Below are positions 48,183-55,111 of a DNA stretch of 64,000 nucleotides, piece after piece; the first letter of the stretch is position 1; each line of letters begins with the position of its first letter. The notes below the pieces were generated by a model. That model did not search any database. It worked only from the letters and a program-made list of their open reading frames with translations, and was not told the DNA's origin. The translations under genes were made by a program, and so were the position numbers. Origin of the DNA: a virus (taxonomy: Duplodnaviria; Caudoviricetes); IMG/VR virus record IMGVR_UViG_3300029305_004466, one strand, 5' to 3'.

Positions 48183-48294
48183 GGGACGATAGTTTAATTG
48201 GAAAAATACTGGCATTAGCAATAGCCCGGGATTGCTAGAGACGGAGTTGGAACACCGTATCACCAGAGACAGGAGTTCAATTCTCCGAGTCCCA
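48183..48294 (+). ncRNA. tRNA-like RNA with anticodon loop replaced by two hairpins
   Basis: GGGAC/GTCCC acceptor stem, D-arm, GGAG-TTCAATT-CTCC T-arm; CTGG/CCAG stem encloses ~50 nt. Confidence 0.65.
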
Positions 48295-48610
48295 CTTTCT
48301 CTTTCTGGGTTCCTGAATAGGAGTAGGCACTCATAATGCTTAGAATTCCTTTGTAAGAGAATATTAAAACTTCCATTATTGATACTGAGTATATTGTAAA
48401 CCTTGTTAATTGATGGACGAGGAGCAATTGTTATCTTTATCAATACAAAACCGATTTGATTCGGATAGGTAAATTGCCGAGGCAAGGTAAGTTATTAGTT
48501 TTGGTAGTCTAATAATAAAGAAGATGTGCTAAGAACAAGGATGGCGGTTGCATGATTAGCCATGGACAATGATTATGCAATGAGGCAGCAAATCGGTCTT
48601 AGCGACCTAT

Positions 48611-48684
48611 GGACCTTTAGCTCAGTTGGTTAGAGCGTCCGGCTCATAACCGGATGGTCGTAGGTTCGAGCCCTACAAGGTCCA
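48611..48684 (+). tRNA. tRNA-Ile2/Met(CAT)
   Basis: GGACCTTTAGCTCAGTTGGTTAGAGC...CT CAT AA...; body resembles Firmicute lysidine tRNA-Ile2. Confidence 0.88.
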
Positions 48685-48890
48685 CTATACCGAGGGATGG
48701 TAGACTGATATAACAGTGGATGACAGCAAAGTTTCGTCTGTCGAAGGGATAGGGGCAATACATGTTACCGCCTATCGTGTAGGTATAATATTACAAAGTG
48801 TATTCGAATGAGTATTCTGTTTAACGGAAGAAAGTCAATCTTAAATGTGAAATATCTATTGACGAGGATATAGTAACAGCTTTGTACTGT

Positions 48891-48960
48891 AGGACATTAG
48901 CTTAATGGTAAAGCACACGACTGATAATCGTGGTCAGCAGTTCGATTCTGTTATGTTCTA
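48891..48960 (+). tRNA. tRNA-Ile(GAT)
   Basis: CACGA-CT GAT AA-TCGTG; short variable loop. Confidence 0.8.
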
Positions 48961-49108
48961 TTCGGTGAAAAGCTGATAGATTACTGTCGATAGGGAGGCA
49001 GTTGCCCAGTGAAGGTAGCCGCCAGCTAACGCAGAGTAAATATGAGTATGGAGAACAAGTCCCCTATGATTTGCCATAAGCATACGAAATGGTTAGCTGG
49101 ATTAACCT

Positions 49109-49201
49109 CGGAGAGTAGCTCAGTGGGCAGAGCTTCTTGCTTAGAATGGGTAACTGCAAGTGAAATCCCGTTGGTCATGAGTTCGAATCTCATCTCTCCG
49201 T
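49109..49201 (+). ncRNA. tRNA-like RNA with pseudoknot in place of the anticodon arm
   Basis: CGGAGAG/CTCTCCG acceptor, GCTC/GAGC D-arm, ATGAG-TTCGAAT-CTCAT T-arm; middle CTTGC/GCAAG stem whose loop AATGGG can pair with CCCGTT. Confidence 0.7.
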
Positions 49202-49323
49202 CTTTGTAAAGGTAAGTTATGGATGCATAATACTAGGATGAAAGGACTTAACTTTAAATGTCAATCTTCAAAACAGTAAGCGACAGCCTTTACAAAATTG
49301 TATCTTGAAAGGAACATATTTTT

Positions 49324-49548
49324 ATGAATGTTGCATTTGCATCAAAAATTGCTAATCTTATTAAAACTGGTCATTATTGGTCATATGCACATATTGCTGA
49401 AGAGTTGCATATAAATAAAAACACAGTAGCTCGTATTGGGAAAATTTATAAAGATGCCCGATGGAGCATTTATAGTGTTGACCAATTAGCACAGAAGCAT
49501 CACGTTAGCAAAAATGTTATTCGGGCTATTCGTGGTACTAAAGTCTGA
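49324..49548 (+). CDS. Small tandem-HTH DNA-binding protein
   Basis: SYAHIAEELHINKNTVARI and SVDQLAQKHHVSKNVIRAI. Confidence 0.65.
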   Translation: MNVAFASKIANLIKTGHYWSYAHIAEELHINKNTVARIGKIYKDARWSIYSVDQLAQKHHVSKNVIRAIRGTKV

Positions 49549-49552
49549 AAAA

Positions 49553-49631
49553 GTGACACATAATTATTCACAAAAGGGTGAATAACTAATGTTTATTAGT
49601 TTGAAACGGGTTCAAATCCTGATGTGTCACC
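49553..49631 (+). ncRNA. Degenerate tRNA-like RNA
   Basis: GTGACACA/TGTGTCAC terminal stem and CGGG-TTCAAAT-CCTG T-arm; non-canonical D and anticodon hairpins. Confidence 0.45.
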
Positions 49632-50158
49632 TCAAGGGGCGATATATGAAAAAAGGTTTACTAAATCGCAAAGGGGCGGTTTTACTGCGGTAATAACTTT
49701 AATCATAATCACAGCTCCCGTGGGATAGATGGCTAAGGGATAGCTAAATCCCAATAGCAGGTTCCAATCGCAAGTTGTCCTGCCAAAAACCAAAAGGTTA
49801 TTGTGATAAGTATCATTTGTATGGAAACATACATGTGAGAAAAAACATCAGTGCTTGACATGCCAAAATACAAGCTGAATGAAGGTTGGTAAATGTATAC
49901 GCCAAAATACATAAGAGGTATATAAATATTAAAATAAATTGGATAATATTCATGATAAAACCGATTTAATATGTGAATTAACACAAGCAGTATATGTACC
50001 CGTTTGTCCAGTGAAGAATGAAGTATGTAACAAGTTGCATATACCATTGGATAGATTCAACCTTCAAGGTTGCCGTGAGACAAAAAGTAGGTATTTAGTA
50101 TGCAAAAGATATCAATGGCACGATAAATGAGTGAAATTCTCATCACTGATGTCAACTT

Positions 50159-50266
50159 GGAGAATTAGCTCAGTTGGCTAGAGCCCTACGAGGAGTTTCG
50201 ATTGGGTGAGCAATATGCTCCTAGACACCAGAAGAAACAGCCCCAGTTCGAATCTGGGATTCTCCA
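50159..50266 (+). ncRNA. tRNA-like RNA with expanded anticodon region
   Basis: GGAGAAT/ATTCTCC acceptor, GCTC-AGTTGGCTA-GAGC D-arm, CCCAG-TTCGAAT-CTGGG T-arm; AGGAG/CTCCT stem with loop GGTG able to pair with downstream CACC. Confidence 0.7.
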
Positions 50267-50631
50267 ATATGACGTTTTAGGGTTTGGGCTCTTACGTAGA
50301 GTTGTTGTCAAATACCCTCATCGCTTCTTATCAGGCGGAAAGAAAACGGGACAACAAGTAGAGGGGGCTGATAATCTCTTCGAAAGTACCGAATATCATT
50401 GATTCTAACAATTGCTAATGTTGCATGAAGCGTGTGCTTCTCTAGCTTCCAACTAGGGCTTAGCCGCTTATAGAATCACAAATGAATGAGTGTGGAAAAC
50501 TCAGGTAGGTGTAACCCCTACTATTCGGTTTGGAAGCATATACCCATTGTGCTTCTTGCCATTATGTGTAAGCCTTTTTTCGGCTAAAGAGAAGGAAACT
50601 CTTAAAAACCAAATTATAGCATTATACATCA

Positions 50632-50661
50632 TTGACACATTTTGTTGCAGTGGTGTATAAT
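50632..50661 (+). promoter_or_regulatory. Sigma-A promoter embedded in a long inverted repeat
   Basis: TTGACA-18 bp-TATAAT within TAGCATTATACATCATTG...CAGTGGTGTATAATGCTA. Confidence 0.55.
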
Positions 50662-50971
50662 GCTATTAGTTTTTATGGGAAGGAAACCCTATAATAAACC
50701 GTTAAGAAATTTTCATGTGGATATTTAAAACAAGAGCATGAAGGAGTCGGCATGGTAGCGAAAAAAGCCGAAAGCCTGTCTAATTTCACTTAAATGAAAG
50801 AAAGAAAAGACGAAAGGAAACCTCTACCAATCCCAGTCTAATATTTTGCAAAGGTATAAACTGAACCTGTTATCTATATATCCTAACATCTATACATTAG
50901 GTTTAAGTCGGGCCTGCATTAAAGTAGTCATTAAGTATAGAAATGTTTAAAACTACTGTATTGGACAACTT

Positions 50972-51102
50972 GCCGGAATATGCAAGCGGGTTGCAAGCAG
51001 CTATTTTTTAATAGTGAGTGAAACACATGAGTATAACTTGTGCTGTGACTGTCCTATGTGGGAGTAGGACATTAAAAGGGAGTTCGAATCTTCTATCCGG
51101 CA
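50972..51102 (+). ncRNA. tRNA(Leu-body)-like RNA with giant variable region
   Basis: GCCGGA/TCCGGC acceptor and GGGAG-TTCGAAT-CTTCT T-arm; no 7-nt anticodon loop; two extra hairpins. Confidence 0.6.
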
Positions 51103-51136
51103 CTTACATAATCTTATGGAAAGGAGAAAAATCACT

Positions 51137-51415
51137 ATGAACAAGACTGAATTAGTTAAGGTTATTGCTGATACTCAGGGTATTGCAGTGAAAGATGCTG
51201 AAAAGGCTATTAATGGCTTCATGGAAGTTGTTAAGACCGAAGTAGCAAAAGGCAATCCTGTACAGTTAGTTGGTTTTGGTACATTTACTGTAAGTAAACG
51301 TGCTGAAAAGACTGGTATCAATCCTCAGACTAAGGAAAAGATGGTTATTCCTGCTTGCAATGCACCTAAATTCAAAGCTGGCGAAAAGTTTAAGCAGATG
51401 GTTAAAGAAGCATAA
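51137..51415 (+). CDS. hup: HU family DNA-binding protein
   Basis: MNKTELV...VQLVGFGTFTVSKRAEKTGINPQTKEKMVIPA...PKFKAG. Confidence 0.95.
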   Translation: MNKTELVKVIADTQGIAVKDAEKAINGFMEVVKTEVAKGNPVQLVGFGTFTVSKRAEKTGINPQTKEKMVIPACNAPKFKAGEKFKQMVKEA

Positions 51416-51493
51416 TTTCCGGTAGTTAGCGGTGGACGTTTTTACTTTTCTATTTTCATCATCGCTTTATAAAACAAGGACAAGATAGATAGT

Positions 51494-51570
51494 TGTATGT
51501 GTAAGCTCAGTTGGGAGAGCTGGGGCGGAGAACCCGCCTTGTGCGAAGGTTCGAGTCCTTCCATGTGCAA
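51494..51570 (+). ncRNA. Pseudo-tRNA / tRNA-like RNA (GAA in loop, no U33)
   Basis: D-arm GCTC-AGTTGGGA-GAGC and T-arm GAAGG-TTCGAGT-CCTTC; anticodon arm GGGCG-GAGAACC-CGCCT is non-canonical. Confidence 0.55.
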
Positions 51571-52042: not shown

Positions 52043-52516
52043 ATGGAAAAAACAAAAGAATTGTGTAGCAAGATATACATGCATTGGTTCTTAGAAGAAA
52101 TGAAAGACCCCAAAATGCCTTACAAAGAAATTGATGAGGAATTTCTACAGAACTCTTTTATCACAAAGATTCTTCTTACAAAATTTAAATCGTTTGATGT
52201 TGATATTCATTTACCAATGCCTCTGTTAGCATTATTATCATTGTGTACAGATGAAAATCCGGGCATGTCTCAAATCATTCTTAAGGATTTACTTAATAGC
52301 ATTAAATCACGCATGGGAGCTATACCAAAAGGCTACGTTATTACGTCTACAGATTTTGCTTTTTGTTTCCCAAATAGTTTCCCTATAATTGCTAACGAGC
52401 AAATTTATGAGAAGTATATTAAATTATGGGATGGACAAAAACGTGAAAGACCAAATGAAATGGCAAGTGATAACTTGTGTGACACACCTGAATGGTGGAA
52501 AGAGGTTATGCAATGA
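52043..52516 (+). CDS. Hypothetical protein
   Basis: Start MEKTKE. Confidence 0.55.
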   Translation: MEKTKELCSKIYMHWFLEEMKDPKMPYKEIDEEFLQNSFITKILLTKFKSFDVDIHLPMPLLALLSLCTDENPGMSQIILKDLLNSIKSRMGAIPKGYVITSTDFAFCFPNSFPIIANEQIYEKYIKLWDGQKRERPNEMASDNLCDTPEWWKEVMQ

Positions 52517-52698
52517 AAAGAAAAGTAAACAGGTTTTTTAAGGCATTGTTGGCGGGGACAGCTGTTTTTGCAATAGCTACAACATTCGCATTACTTATTA
52601 GCTATTTTGTTAAGAACTCTTCAGCGATAGGCATCTTAGGAGTGATATTCATTCTTGTATTGGTAGTCGGTTATGCCTTAACTTCAGACCTGCCTTAA
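52513..52698 (+). CDS. Small two-TM membrane protein
   Basis: Two hydrophobic helices; GAGG RBS. Confidence 0.5.
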   Translation: MKRKVNRFFKALLAGTAVFAIATTFALLISYFVKNSSAIGILGVIFILVLVVGYALTSDLP

Positions 52699-52836
52699 AT
52701 AAAAAGGAGGAAAAGAGTATGAAAAAGAAGGATAAGAAACGCAAATGGAGTAATCGTGATAACATATTTGTTATTACAGCTATAATAATCCTGATAATTT
52801 CGACTGCACTAATTATTATACGTTAGGAGAAAAAAC

Positions 52837-53343
52837 ATGGCGATAATGGGTGAATGGATTCCGCATTGTGGATTCAAATCAAAAGCTGATGCTCACAAAG
52901 TAGCGTTAGAGCTTGAAAGCATCGGATATGATAATGGCACCGATGAATTTAATACACAAGAAATTGTAGATTTTGCACGTAATAATCCCACTTGTGAAAT
53001 TCATAAGTTATTAGAATGGGACGATAAAATAGCTGCTGAAGCTCATCGTAATGAGCAAGCGAGAGAGATTCTTCGTTTTCTTAAAATCACTGTTGTAACA
53101 ACACAGGAAGACAATCCAGTATTTCAGCCAACAAAAGTAAGATACTTTGTTAATACTGGTAAACATGATGGAACATATAAGAAAACTGAAGTCGTATTCC
53201 AGAATGCTAGTGAAGCAGACAGAATTATGGAAGGTATGAGGCGTGATGCTGAGAATTTTATTAACAGATATCAGATTTATGCTCATCTTAATCCGAATAT
53301 TCCTGCTGCTATTCAGGCATTACAAGCAGTAATCAATCCTTAA
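52837..53343 (+). CDS. Phage protein (IH..LEWDD..AAE..R..QAR motif); candidate accessory of the repeat/RAMP system
   Basis: 168 aa; ends immediately before the pentamer array. Confidence 0.6.
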   Translation: MAIMGEWIPHCGFKSKADAHKVALELESIGYDNGTDEFNTQEIVDFARNNPTCEIHKLLEWDDKIAAEAHRNEQAREILRFLKITVVTTQEDNPVFQPTKVRYFVNTGKHDGTYKKTEVVFQNASEADRIMEGMRRDAENFINRYQIYAHLNPNIPAAIQALQAVINP

Positions 53344-53353
53344 TAAGTTGATG

Positions 53354-53952
53354 TTTTCTCTTGCATATATATTGGCTTAAATGCCAATGACAATAAGGCA
53401 ATTCATTGCACATAATTTCATAACAGGACAGCACAAAATACGTCAACATAGGCTAAGACATGTTAGCTCACATGGCTCTTTTGAGCCAATATATATGTAA
53501 GAGAGGACAGGACAACTCAGTGCATTTTACCACAATGAATGACAATCTATAACATGACAGAGGGGCGAGGACACTCGCCCCATTTTTATAAGTATAAATA
53601 TTGGCTTTAATTAGTCAATGAATATATTACAATACAAATGCACGATAGCTTAATACTGAACAGAATAGCATAATGCATGATACAATAAAACACATGGCTC
53701 TTAGAGCCTTTATTTATGCTTATAAATAGTAGGATTATGAATACATATATTGGCTTTAATGGTCAATGAAAACAAAATAAGTAAGCTGATTATTGTACAG
53801 AACAGCCCAGCCCACTACAAAACAGTACAGGACAAAACAAATGGCTCTTAGAGCCTTTATATGTGTTCATAAACACAAGCACAAAGACAGCAGAATACAT
53901 GTCAGTGCAACATAGGATATTACAAAACATTTAAATCCTATCAAAAGATAGG
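53354..53952 (+). repeat. Array of hairpin-framed pentamer (N-Y-A-N-N) tracts; candidate guide RNAs
   Basis: Three cassettes with outer stem, ATTGGCTT..CAATG hairpin, tract and ATGGCTCTT(T/A)GAGCC hairpin (53354-53505, 53585-53726, 53735-53872), plus two free tracts (53507-53561, 53887-53936). A at unit position 3 in 16/16, 11/11, 13/14 and 10/10 units of tracts A, B, D, E. Confidence 0.85.
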
Positions 53953-53970
53953 TAGAAGGAGACACACATT

Positions 53971-54645
53971 ATGGCAACAAAGAAAAACACAACCCCAGAA
54001 GTACAGGTAGTAGAAACTGAATTACAGAATAAGATTCGTTTCGCTACAGCAACAATCACCATTCAGGGTGATAGCGATTTAATTCTTAACAAGATGAGAG
54101 ACAGTACTACACAGCAGCTTGCAGATAAGCAGGAAGGTAAAGTACAGGGTACTAAGGCTCCTGTTAATATGTATGAGCATCTTGTTGGTTCTATTCACTG
54201 GTTAAAGGGTGAAGAAACTAACTATACAGAAGAAGGATGGAAAAATGCATTAGCAAACAATACTCCGGGTTATCCATCTTCTGGTTTAAAGAAAGCTCTT
54301 TGCGATGCAGTTGTTCGTGTATTAGGTGAAACATATAGCACGAAATTTAATGCAAATATGCAGATTCTTGATAGTTTCCTGCCGATTAAGTTTGCGGCAA
54401 GCACATATGATAAGTCTTTATTTAGTCCACAGAAGGGCAGTCCTGTCCTTTGTTACAGAAATGTATTCAAAGACTGGGAAACAACTTTCACAATCAAGTA
54501 CATTCCAGATAACTATTCTCTGGACCAGATTCTTGAAGTTATCAATTGTGCAGGCTTTGCATGTGGTATTGGTAGCCACAGACCATCTAGTAAGGGCGGT
54601 TCCAATGGTATGTTCCATGTAGCAAAGGTTGTAGAAATGGTATAG
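53971..54645 (+). CDS. RAMP/Cas7-like RNA-binding protein (Vipr-like)
   Basis: N-terminal ITIQGDSDLILN strand, YPSSGLKKAL helix (RAMP PxSxxKG-like) and C-terminal Gly loop AGFACGIGSHRPSSKGGSNGMFHV; abuts the pentamer array. Confidence 0.75.
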   Translation: MATKKNTTPEVQVVETELQNKIRFATATITIQGDSDLILNKMRDSTTQQLADKQEGKVQGTKAPVNMYEHLVGSIHWLKGEETNYTEEGWKNALANNTPGYPSSGLKKALCDAVVRVLGETYSTKFNANMQILDSFLPIKFAASTYDKSLFSPQKGSPVLCYRNVFKDWETTFTIKYIPDNYSLDQILEVINCAGFACGIGSHRPSSKGGSNGMFHVAKVVEMV

Positions 54646-54652
54646 GTGTTTT

Positions 54653-55111
54653 ATGGCTGATTCAAAGAAAAGATTATATTCAAGAGAAACCATTAACAAG
54701 CATTACAGCGATTTTATTGAACAGGTAAAAACTTATAATGAAAAAGGCTTTCCTGATAAAATACTTGATGTTGTTATTTTTGGTTCGTACATTAATACAA
54801 ACAACCCTAAAATGCACGACTTGGATATAGGAATAAGATTTGAAAAACATCCAGAACTGTATGAGGATTACAAAAAGAAAATGTCAAAAGAGCAATTGGA
54901 GAAATATGCAAACAGATGTTTTTTGGACAGATTAGTAATACCTCATACAGAGGAAATTAGATTTTTAAAAGCAAAGCATGGAACTATTTCTCTATATGAT
55001 ATTGATTATGACAAAGAATATATCTTTAATGATAAACATTTGTACATAGTAAAAAATGGCGAGCTAATAGAAGATGCATTACCTATTCCTTTGAATTTGC
55101 AAACCAAATAA
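54653..55111 (+). CDS. Minimal nucleotidyltransferase (Pol-beta superfamily)
   Basis: VVIFGSY...DLDIGI motif. Confidence 0.75.
   Translation: MADSKKRLYSRETINKHYSDFIEQVKTYNEKGFPDKILDVVIFGSYINTNNPKMHDLDIGIRFEKHPELYEDYKKKMSKEQLEKYANRCFLDRLVIPHTEEIRFLKAKHGTISLYDIDYDKEYIFNDKHLYIVKNGELIEDALPIPLNLQTK

What the first reader, a model, noticed from the sequence alone, without database searches (positions are those of the whole stretch)
53393..53472. Guide tract A decodes to the phage DNA polymerase motif MFQFYGANRTGRWA when every third (wobble) base is skipped
Seen: the 16 variable dinucleotides are AG AT TT CA TT TA GG GC AA CG AC GG AG TG GC CA. Read as codon positions 1-2, units 2-15 are compatible with M-F-Q-F-Y-G-A-N-R-T-G-R-W-A. 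Knowledge: G(M/L)(F/L)QFYGANRTGRWAGR is a conserved motif of the family-A DNA polymerases of many Firmicute phages and prophages. Inference: 14 consecutive compatible codons are unlikely by chance. The guide would target a competing phage's polymerase gene through a non-contiguous code that ignores synonymous third positions, so silent mutations would not allow escape. The motif is not in any ORF of this window.
Basis: partly seen in the sequence, partly recalled or inferred. Interest (0 to 1): 0.95.

Follow-up and report, generated by a model that had tools for sequence, protein, structure and literature searches.

The report
Phage VIPR guide against rival polymerase
An uncultivated ~210-kb phage carries a CRISPR-related "VIPR" guide RNA whose spaced letter pairs spell, codon by codon, a catalytic motif of the DNA polymerase gene of rival Bacillota phages. 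The gapped code is already in 2026 preprints, but this clade uses A-Y-A rather than G-G-Y as the constant triplet, and the target is new.

Summary
Window 53393-53472 holds 16 pentamers of the form N-Y-A + NN, with A at position 3 in all 16.

- **Target match:** read with one skipped base between dinucleotides, units 2-15 match 104 IMG/VR contigs and 55 bacterial contigs exactly. All 159 sites are in frame in G(M/I)(F/L)QFYGANRTGRWAGR..QNLP of a family-A DNA polymerase.
- **Controls:** the same dinucleotides in shuffled order gave 0 hits, a 2-nt skip gave 0, and a reversed pattern gave 0 in 301 genomes.
- **Known kind:** this is a VIPR system (bioRxiv 10.64898/2026.04.26.720920, .720927, 2026.10.15.759431). 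The adjacent 224-aa gene is a Cas7-like RAMP, and its only sequence match in the PDB is the SUSP1 Vipr protein.
- **What differs from print:** the constant triplet is A-Y-A rather than GGY, with Ser-His in place of the G-loop Asp-Trp that reads the two guanines. The guide sits in the loop of a long covarying hairpin. The host is a jumbo phage that uses a family-C polymerase, so it has no self-target.
- **Convergence:** guides in sister phages hit motifs A and B of the same polymerase gene.

RNA expression, RNP formation and silencing are inferred, not shown. The scan has noted VIPR variants before, on other DNA.

The parts
52837..53343 (+). 168-aa conserved accessory gene (vap-like), directly upstream of the guide array
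   Evidence: A homolog lies upstream of the array, on the vipr strand, in 80 of 83 related loci. It has no Pfam family and matches phrog_15946, of unknown function. The AF2 model (pLDDT 78) has no significant PDB fold match.
53352..53509 (+). Cassette 1: long closing hairpin (arms 53352-53381 and 53480-53509) with guide tract A in its loop
   Evidence: 30-nt inverted repeat, 87% complementary. MFE -56.4 kcal/mol, z = -7.9. In 10 cassettes, 13 of 24 pairs show compensatory changes, and the invariant U-G pairs only work on the + strand.
53393..53472 (+). Guide tract A: 16 pentamers N-Y-A + NN. The NN of units 2-15 (53401-53467) spell MFQFYGANRTGRWA at codon positions 1-2.
53502..53561 (+). Tract B: 12 pentamers outside a cassette
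   Evidence: Parsed. One IMG/VR hit, antisense in C5 methyltransferase motif X (QYIQIGNAVPP), allowing one U:G wobble.
53562..53589 (+). Intrinsic terminator after tract B
   Evidence: 8-bp stem with 7 GC pairs, followed by a T-run.
53585..53726 (+). Cassette 2 (guide C, with one 6-nt unit)
   Evidence: No target found.
53735..53872 (+). Cassette 3 (guide D)
   Evidence: No target found.
53882..53952 (+). Tract E (about 9-11 pentamers) followed by a small hairpin at 53937-53952, just before the vipr ribosome-binding site
   Evidence: Its NN series is conserved in L108 and L109. Only one, chance-level, IMG/VR hit.
53971..54645 (+). vipr gene: 224-aa Cas7-like RAMP protein
   Evidence: The only PDB sequence hit is the SUSP1 Vipr protein, 36pp_D (E=4.9e-5 with the single sequence, 4.1e-6 with the profile). 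The AF2 model (pLDDT 82) matches Csm3, Cmr4, type VII Cas7 and Cascade Cas7 at E about 5e-7.

Best explanation
Tract A is the guide part of a VIPR-type RNA (vrRNA) encoded next to its Vipr protein.

What is shown:
- The RNA is read from the + strand.
- Each pentamer has a constant A-Y-A triplet and two free bases.
- Fourteen consecutive free dinucleotides equal codon positions 1-2 of the TGR/QNLP catalytic-core motif of a family-A DNA polymerase gene.
- That gene is carried by ~50-65 kb phages and prophages of Bacillota.

What is inferred from the solved SUSP1 VIPR structures:
- One Vipr protomer binds each pentamer and hides the constant triplet.
- The NN pairs are presented to double-stranded DNA.
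- The guide pairs with the template strand of the rival polymerase gene, flipping out every third (wobble) base.
- The resulting filament and R-loop block expression of the rival's replication enzyme.

Because the guide has the sense of the coding strand, it cannot pair with the polymerase mRNA. The target must therefore be DNA. The carrier phage replicates with a family-C polymerase and has no matching site, so it is not hit by its own guide.
For: - **Periodicity:** the pentamer structure and NN list are as described.
- **Target match:** 104 + 55 exact gapped matches, all in frame in the polymerase motif, against 0 for the shuffled order, 0 for a 2-nt skip and 0 for the reversed pattern in 301 genomes.
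- **Target gene:** PF00476, E=4e-21. Its relatives are annotated DNA polymerases of Oscillospiraceae, Ruminococcus, Streptococcus and Erysipelothrix phages.
- **Wobble breadth:** 99 distinct 41-mers, with a mean of 6 differences over the 13 skipped positions.
- **Vipr homology:** the only PDB sequence hit is SUSP1 Vipr, over the thumb and G-loop region. The fold is Cas7-like.
- **Family-wide arrays:** 297 IMG/VR loci encode relatives. In the 83 loci held, 147 distinct tracts give a logo of A 75% / C 64% or T 24% / A 96% / N / N.
- **Convergence on one gene:** L108's first cassette spells QKGKIAELALGYGGS (motif B; 30/30 interior bases, shuffles at most 24/34). The L118 clade spells ADFSAIEARVIAWF (motif A; 27/28, 141 hits). 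L180 spells AMGALEMGL.
- **Strand:** covariation and U-G pairs place the RNA on the + strand.
- **No self-target:** none in the window or in complete genomes of close relatives, which have PF07733 but not PF00476.
- **Co-occurrence:** the same JGI sample, 3300024268, holds both this phage (L105) and a target contig (L034).
- **Mechanism in print:** read.
Against:
- No biochemical evidence shows that this Vipr binds A-Y-A units or DNA.
- The host of the carrier phage is unknown, so co-infection with the target phages is inferred only from co-occurrence in one sample.
- Guides C, D and E of the same array found no target.
- The outcome of binding (silencing, a replication block or cleavage) is not known for this clade, and its accessory protein has no recognisable fold.
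Confidence: 0.82

Rival explanations
1. It is the same VIPR guide and the same target, but the effect is not transcriptional silencing. The filament might block replication forks, or recruit the conserved 168-aa accessory protein (or another factor) to damage the rival genome.
For: The VIPR preprint reports types whose accessory genes are nucleases or helicases. Here the conserved accessory protein, present in 80/83 loci, has no identified fold, so an enzymatic role is not excluded.
Against: The accessory protein matches no nuclease or helicase family in Pfam or PHROGs. The only experimentally characterised VIPRs act by binding and repression.
Confidence: 0.12
2. The array is a protein-binding RNA of the TRAP type. 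A ring or filament protein would bind the repeated A-Y-A triplets, and the dinucleotides would be meaningless spacers.
For: The period-5 layout of triplets separated by 2-nt spacers resembles the TRAP binding sites of the Bacillus trp leader (from my own knowledge, not tested here).
Against: Meaningless spacers would not spell 14 consecutive codons of one conserved motif in 159 loci, with 0 hits for the shuffled, 2-nt-skip and reversed controls. Sister guides would not spell other motifs of the same gene.
Confidence: 0.02
3. The guide is a decoy or a regulator rather than a weapon. It might redirect another element's Vipr, or tune the phage's own genes.
For: Satellite-encoded solo vrRNAs that redirect a phage's VIPR to decoy sites are in print (abstract of 10.64898/2026.10.15.759431).
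Against: This array sits beside its own vipr gene and conserved accessory gene. There is no matching site in the window or in complete relatives' genomes at <=3 mismatches. The site is an essential catalytic motif of foreign phages, not a repetitive host sequence.
Confidence: 0.04

Closest known systems
Type II VIPR of Escherichia phage SUSP1 and the Pseudomonas fulva prophage (bioRxiv 10.64898/2026.04.26.720920; structures in 10.64898/2026.04.26.720927; PDB 36pp)
   Same: - A phage-encoded single RAMP protein with sequence homology over the thumb and G-loop.
- Guide RNAs made of pentamers, each with a constant triplet plus NN.
- Targets matched with one skipped base that falls on the wobble position.
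- Targets lie in rival mobile elements, with no self-target.
- A small conserved accessory gene sits in the locus.
   Different: - The constant triplet is A-Y-A (logo A/C>T/A), not GGY.
- The G-loop reads G-S-H-R-P where SUSP1 has G-D-W-R-P. D177 and W178 are the residues that read the two guanines.
- The guide sits in the loop of a 25-30 bp hairpin formed by its 5' and 3' flanks, rather than being followed by a 3' pseudoknot tail.
- The gene order is accessory gene, array, vipr.
- The carrier is a ~210-kb phage.
- The target is a DNA polymerase gene rather than a satellite recombinase or lysogeny regulators.
Divergent VIPR arrays with non-canonical repeat units (bioRxiv 10.64898/2026.10.21.760802, 21 clusters; and the NNNGG / YNNNG / NNNNG variants of the first VIPR preprint)
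   Same: Period-5 arrays lie next to Vipr-like folds, and the fixed triplet is not GGY.
   Different: The triplets named in the text are GAC, CAC, WGT and TGH, and the first preprint's variants all keep a G. A-C-A / A-Y-A is not named in the text I could read; the figures are not held. No targets were decoded for those clusters in the passages I read.
Wobble-aligned VIPR targeting of a catalytic core (SUSP1 vrRNA4 on the satellite excision recombinase; bioRxiv 10.64898/2026.10.15.759431)
   Same: The guide reads only the amino-acid-determining positions of a catalytic motif of an essential gene of a competitor, so synonymous third-position changes do not help the target escape.
   Different: The gene (family-A DNA polymerase), the hosts (Bacillota) and the footprint (14 codons here against 6) all differ. 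Here the target class is shared by guides from several distantly related VIPR phages.
Class 1 CRISPR backbone proteins (Cas7 / Csm3 / Cmr4)
   Same: The protein has the same fold (Foldseek E about 5e-7). Pairing between guide and target is interrupted periodically.
   Different: There is no CRISPR array, no other cas genes, no spacer-repeat structure and no 6-nt periodicity. Here the guide has 5-nt units with 2 paired bases, and the target has 3-nt units.

Membership tests
VIPR (Vipr + vrRNA) | Vipr protein: a minimal RAMP with an RRM core, thumb and glycine-rich loop, homologous to described Vipr proteins | tested here: met
   The only PDB sequence hit is the SUSP1 Vipr protein 36pp_D (E=4.9e-5 with the sequence, 4.1e-6 with the profile), residues 158-206 against 133-181. 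The AF2 model matches Cas7-family chains at E about 5e-7.
VIPR (Vipr + vrRNA) | Tandem pentamer repeats with a constant triplet and a hypervariable NN, encoded beside vipr | tested here: met
   16 units in tract A. 147 distinct tracts in 83 related loci have near-uniform bases at positions 4-5. Guides differ between phages whose Vipr proteins are 86-96% identical.
VIPR (Vipr + vrRNA) | Canonical constant triplet GGY (or the published G-containing variants NNNGG, YNNNG, NNNNG) | tested here: not met
   The constant triplet is N-Y-A here and A-Y-A across the clade. The G-loop residues that read the guanines in SUSP1 (D177, W178) are Ser-His here. This makes it a variant, not a canonical member.
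VIPR (Vipr + vrRNA) | Natural targets obey the 1-nt skip rule, with the skipped base on the wobble position and targets in other mobile elements | tested here: met
   104 + 55 exact matches at a 1-nt skip, all in frame. The 2-nt skip gave 0 and the shuffled order gave 0. Local scoring of the sister-clade guides gave top scores of 27/28 and 17/18 at 1-nt skip, against 14-21 under the other skip rules and shuffles, although the means over all 147 tracts do not separate the rules.
VIPR (Vipr + vrRNA) | No self-targeting | tested here: met
   The window has no site at <=3 mismatches. Complete genomes of relatives whose Vipr proteins are 96% and 86% identical have none either.
VIPR (Vipr + vrRNA) | Conserved structured 3' tail capping the repeat tract (a pseudoknot in the SUSP1 clade) | tested here: inconclusive
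   A conserved 3' element (GGCTC..GAGCC) exists, but it pairs with a conserved 5' element to close a long hairpin. No pseudoknot was tested.
VIPR (Vipr + vrRNA) | Accessory vap gene in the locus | tested here: inconclusive
   A conserved 168-aa gene lies upstream in 80/83 loci. Its fold is unassigned. There is only a weak, sub-threshold resemblance of residues 14-120 to winged-helix domains (Z 5.3-5.7). Relatedness to vap1-6 could not be tested because no sequences are held.
VIPR (Vipr + vrRNA) | The vrRNA is expressed, co-purifies with Vipr, and the RNP binds dsDNA and silences | not testable with these tools
CRISPR-Cas class 1 | CRISPR repeat-spacer array and further cas genes (Cas5/Cas6, large subunit, adaptation module) | tested here: not met
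   There is no tandem repeat array of CRISPR type in 50-58 kb. The neighbouring genes have no Cas families.

The most novel reading that the evidence does not exclude
The A-Y-A clade may be a distinct VIPR type with three special properties:
1. Its handle pocket has been re-specified, with Ser-His replacing the guanine-reading Asp-Trp.
2. Its guides are released from long hairpin cassettes, for example by a double-strand-specific RNase.
3. Its units may be 5 or 6 nt long without shifting the target register.

Its members, from jumbo phages to ~50-90 kb phages, would then share a strategy of shutting down the family-A DNA polymerase of rival temperate phages. Different phages would aim at different catalytic motifs (TGR/QNLP, motif A, motif B) of the same gene.
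Probability: 0.45. Interest if true: 0.65.

Novelty: new variant of a known kind. Interest (0 to 1): 0.5.

Why it matters
- **Generality of the code.** The gapped VIPR code seems to work with a constant triplet that has no guanine. The protein changes sit exactly at the two residues that read the guanines in the solved structure. This gives a natural experiment on how the handle is recognised, and a possible second, orthogonal handle for engineering.
- **A new target class.** The targets are the catalytic motifs of a replication polymerase. Guides from distantly related phages converge on the same gene, which argues that these matches are selected rather than accidental.
- **A large, untested clade.** The clade has 297 IMG/VR loci from uncultivated phages and has not been examined experimentally.

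Tried and rejected
- **Rfam:** only sub-threshold chance matches over 52500-54500.
- **Tandem Repeats Finder:** it does not report the pentamer tracts.
- **Phage GenBank collection:** no DNA relative of the locus. At the protein level only distant Gordonia phage hits (26% identity).
- **Own genome:** none is held for the window, so complete genomes of close relatives were used instead.
- **Other guides:** C, D and E found no exact IMG/VR target. Nothing above shuffles appeared in the 1.0 Mb of target loci, the related VIPR loci or the window. The single guide-E hit is at chance level and not in a clear ORF.
- **Accessory protein:** no Pfam family, no significant Foldseek PDB match, and only middling VIA-align scores.
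- **Downstream nucleotidyltransferase gene (54653-55111):** rejected as part of the system, because it occurs only in near-identical contigs.
- **Three-base reading:** rejected by inspection. The first handle base does not follow the common wobble base of the targets.
- **Literature limits:** the supplementary tables of the VIPR preprint are not held. Whether this clade is among its 667 loci could not be checked.

Full report
**1. The observation**

Window 53393-53472 parses into 16 five-base units. The longest exact run of A at period 5 in the 64-kb window is 17 and lies here. Outside 53300-54000 the longest is 9, and 200 shuffles of the window reach at most 13.

Four further tracts of the same kind fill the 627-nt gap between two + strand genes. 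Three tracts (A, C, D) lie inside cassettes closed by long inverted repeats. Two (B, E) follow cassettes 1 and 3 and end at hairpins. The one after B is a strong intrinsic terminator.

**2. The decoding claim**

I built the pattern from units 2-15 with one free base between dinucleotides, giving 28 fixed bases. It matched 104 IMG/VR contigs exactly and 55 stretches of bacterial and archaeal genome contigs. Every hit examined is in frame in ..G(M/I)(F/L)QFYGANRTGRWAGR..QNLP...

- A representative ORF (L007, 670 aa) is a family-A DNA polymerase (PF00476, E=4e-21).
- Its relatives are annotated DNA polymerases of ~50-65 kb phages of Oscillospiraceae, Ruminococcus, Acutalibacteraceae, Christensenellales, Streptococcus (Javan prophages), Erysipelothrix and Terrisporobacter.
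- The genome hits are mostly Lachnospiraceae, Oscillospiraceae and other Clostridia.

Controls:
- The same 14 dinucleotides in shuffled order gave 0 hits.
- The same order with a 2-nt skip gave 0 hits.
- An 18-base gapped pattern from another guide gave 1 hit, which shows that 28 fixed bases lie far beyond chance.
- In 301 genomes of one Clostridia family, the pattern found 22 sites in 21 genomes at <=2 mismatches. The same pattern read backwards found none.

The two end units do not match: AG and CA against the Gly codons GG, although unit 1 shares one of its two bases with GG. The last unit before the 3' element is A-rich in all cassettes and is probably part of the scaffold.

**3. What the locus is**

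A first-reader note on this window used the word VIPR, and the literature search found the system. VIPR systems pair a minimal RAMP protein (Vipr) with vrRNAs made of GGY/NN pentamers. The NN pairs recognise dsDNA with one skipped base per unit. The skipped base usually falls on the wobble position, and either strand can be targeted. Targets are rival phages and satellites.

Cryo-EM shows one protomer per unit. The GGY triplet is sequestered by the thumb and G-loop (H17, R138, D177, W178, R179), and a gapped R-loop forms.

The 224-aa gene at 53971-54645 has one sequence match in the whole PDB, and it is the SUSP1 Vipr protein (E=4.9e-5; 4.1e-6 with a family profile). The match covers the thumb Tyr-Arg and the G-loop. 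Its AF2 model (pLDDT 82) matches Csm3, Cmr4, type VII Cas7 and Cascade Cas7. So this is a VIPR locus.

**4. How it differs from the published systems**

- **Constant triplet.** It is N-Y-A here. Across 147 distinct tracts from 83 related loci the logo is A 75% / C 64% or T 24% / A 96% / N / N. The detector required A at position 3 and mostly Y at position 2, so only position 1 and the variability of positions 4-5 are unbiased. The first preprint lists only G-containing variants. A later preprint names GAC, CAC, WGT and TGH. A-Y-A is not named in any text I could read.
- **Handle-reading residues.** In the alignment to SUSP1 Vipr, the G-loop G-D-W-R-P becomes G-S-H-R-P (G-S-G-R in more distant members). 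The changed residues are the two said to read G1 and G2. The thumb Arg and the loop Arg are kept.
- **Scaffold.** The 5' and 3' flanks of each cassette pair with each other. RNAalifold on 10 cassettes from the window and two sister phages gives 24 pairs, 13 of them with compensatory double changes. Two U-G pairs would be A-C mismatches on the other strand, which fixes the RNA on the + strand. Cassette 1 folds at -56.4 kcal/mol, z = -7.9.
- **Accessory gene.** A 168-aa gene upstream of the array is conserved in 80 of 83 loci, but it has no assignable fold.
- **Carrier phage.** Close relatives are complete 208-kb (direct terminal repeats) and 213-kb genomes.

**5. Direction and self-avoidance**

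The RNA is + strand, and its NN series equals the coding strand of the polymerase gene. It therefore pairs with the template DNA strand and cannot pair with the mRNA.

Guide B has the opposite orientation. It matches, with one U:G wobble allowed, the antisense of C5-methyltransferase motix X (QYIQIGNAVPP) in one IMG/VR contig. Mixed orientations fit DNA targeting, as published.

The window has no polymerase-motif site. The complete genomes of relatives have no PF00476 or PF00136 gene and no site at <=3 mismatches. They encode a 1159-1169 aa family-C polymerase (PF07733, E=1.5e-72). The phage therefore aims at an enzyme class it does not use.

**6. Corroboration from other members of the clade**

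I extracted all tracts from the related loci and scored them against the polymerase-bearing loci at skips of 0-3 and after shuffling. Three further guides stood out, and only at the 1-nt skip:

| Source of guide | Vipr identity to this phage | Peptide spelled | Polymerase motif | Score |
|---|---|---|---|---|
| L118 clade | 43% | ADFSAIEARVIAWF | motif A | 27/28, 141 sites |
| L180 | about 42% | AMGALEMGL | not assigned | 19/22 |
| L108, first cassette | 86% | QKGKIAELALGYGGS | motif B | 30/30 interior bases; shuffles at most 24/34 |

The L108 cassette is the positional counterpart of cassette 1 here. It reaches its score by reading straight through two 6-nt units. Three different catalytic motifs of one gene are thus targeted by different phages.

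This comparison is conditional on loci that were chosen by guide A, so it shows convergence on the gene, not prevalence.

**7. The wobble argument**

The 159 exact targets are 99 different 41-mers. They differ on average at 6 of the 13 skipped positions, and at up to 12. The commonest single 41-mer covers only 7 of them. One gapped guide therefore covers what a contiguous guide could not.

Escape by silent change is not fully closed. Natural sites with 1-2 mismatches often differ by an Arg CGN/AGR switch (silent), or by Thr to Ser and Trp to Phe.

**8. Ecology**

The identical 627-nt array occurs in two other metagenome assemblies. One of them, JGI sample 3300024268, also yielded a target contig (L034). 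The host of the carrier phage was not determined.

**9. Verdict**

- The principle is already in 2026 preprints: the gapped code, wobble skipping and the targeting of a competitor's catalytic core.
- New here are the A-Y-A handle with matching G-loop substitutions, the hairpin-cassette scaffold, the polymerase target class with convergence across the clade, and tolerance of 6-nt units.
- Expression, RNP assembly and the effect on the rival phage are inferred.
- The scan has recorded VIPR variants with other non-canonical triplets on other DNA. None of those notes was tested here.

Noticed in passing
window 53502-53561: Tract B, read antisense with the 1-nt skip and one U:G wobble, matches C5 DNA methyltransferase motif X (..SQYIQIGNAVPPLLA..) in one IMG/VR contig (L188:2017-2048). 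A single hit for about 21.5 fixed bases is suggestive but weak.
   Followed up: partly
window 53882-53931; L108:2407-2461; L109:2410-2459: Guide E (AG GC AT TG GT AC GG TT AA) is conserved in three jumbo phages whose other guides differ. No target was found: the single IMG/VR hit is at chance level.
   Followed up: partly
L108:1763-1928: The first cassette of a sister phage contains two 6-nt units. Its dinucleotides nevertheless stay in register with 15 consecutive codons of polymerase motif B, so an extra base in the constant part does not shift the target register.
   Followed up: yes
L118:2231-2300; L180:2247-2301: Guides of distant clade members (Vipr about 43% identical, 50-90 kb phages) spell ADFSAIEARVIAWF (polymerase motif A) and AMGALEMGL in the same target phages.
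   Followed up: yes
window 54653-55111: A 152-aa nucleotidyltransferase (PF01909, E=4e-6) lies directly after vipr. It is present only in near-identical contigs, not in L108, L109 or more distant loci, so it is probably not part of the system.
   Followed up: partly
L248, L250, L251 (Anaerocolumna sedimenticola chromosome, G005): One bacterial chromosome carries three copies of the targeted polymerase motif, one exact and two with a Thr-to-Ser mismatch. This suggests several related prophages in one host.
   Followed up: no
NC_031249.1:32720-33340 (Gordonia phage UmaThurman gp39) and Gordonia phage Pipp gp42: These are the only GenBank phage records with a protein-level match to this Vipr (26% identity, E=4e-9). 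Both are annotated as hypothetical protein. They may be VIPR loci in cultivated actinophages.
   Followed up: no
window 48183-51570: A first-reader note reports six tRNA-shaped RNAs with aberrant anticodon arms upstream of this locus. I did not examine them.
   Followed up: no
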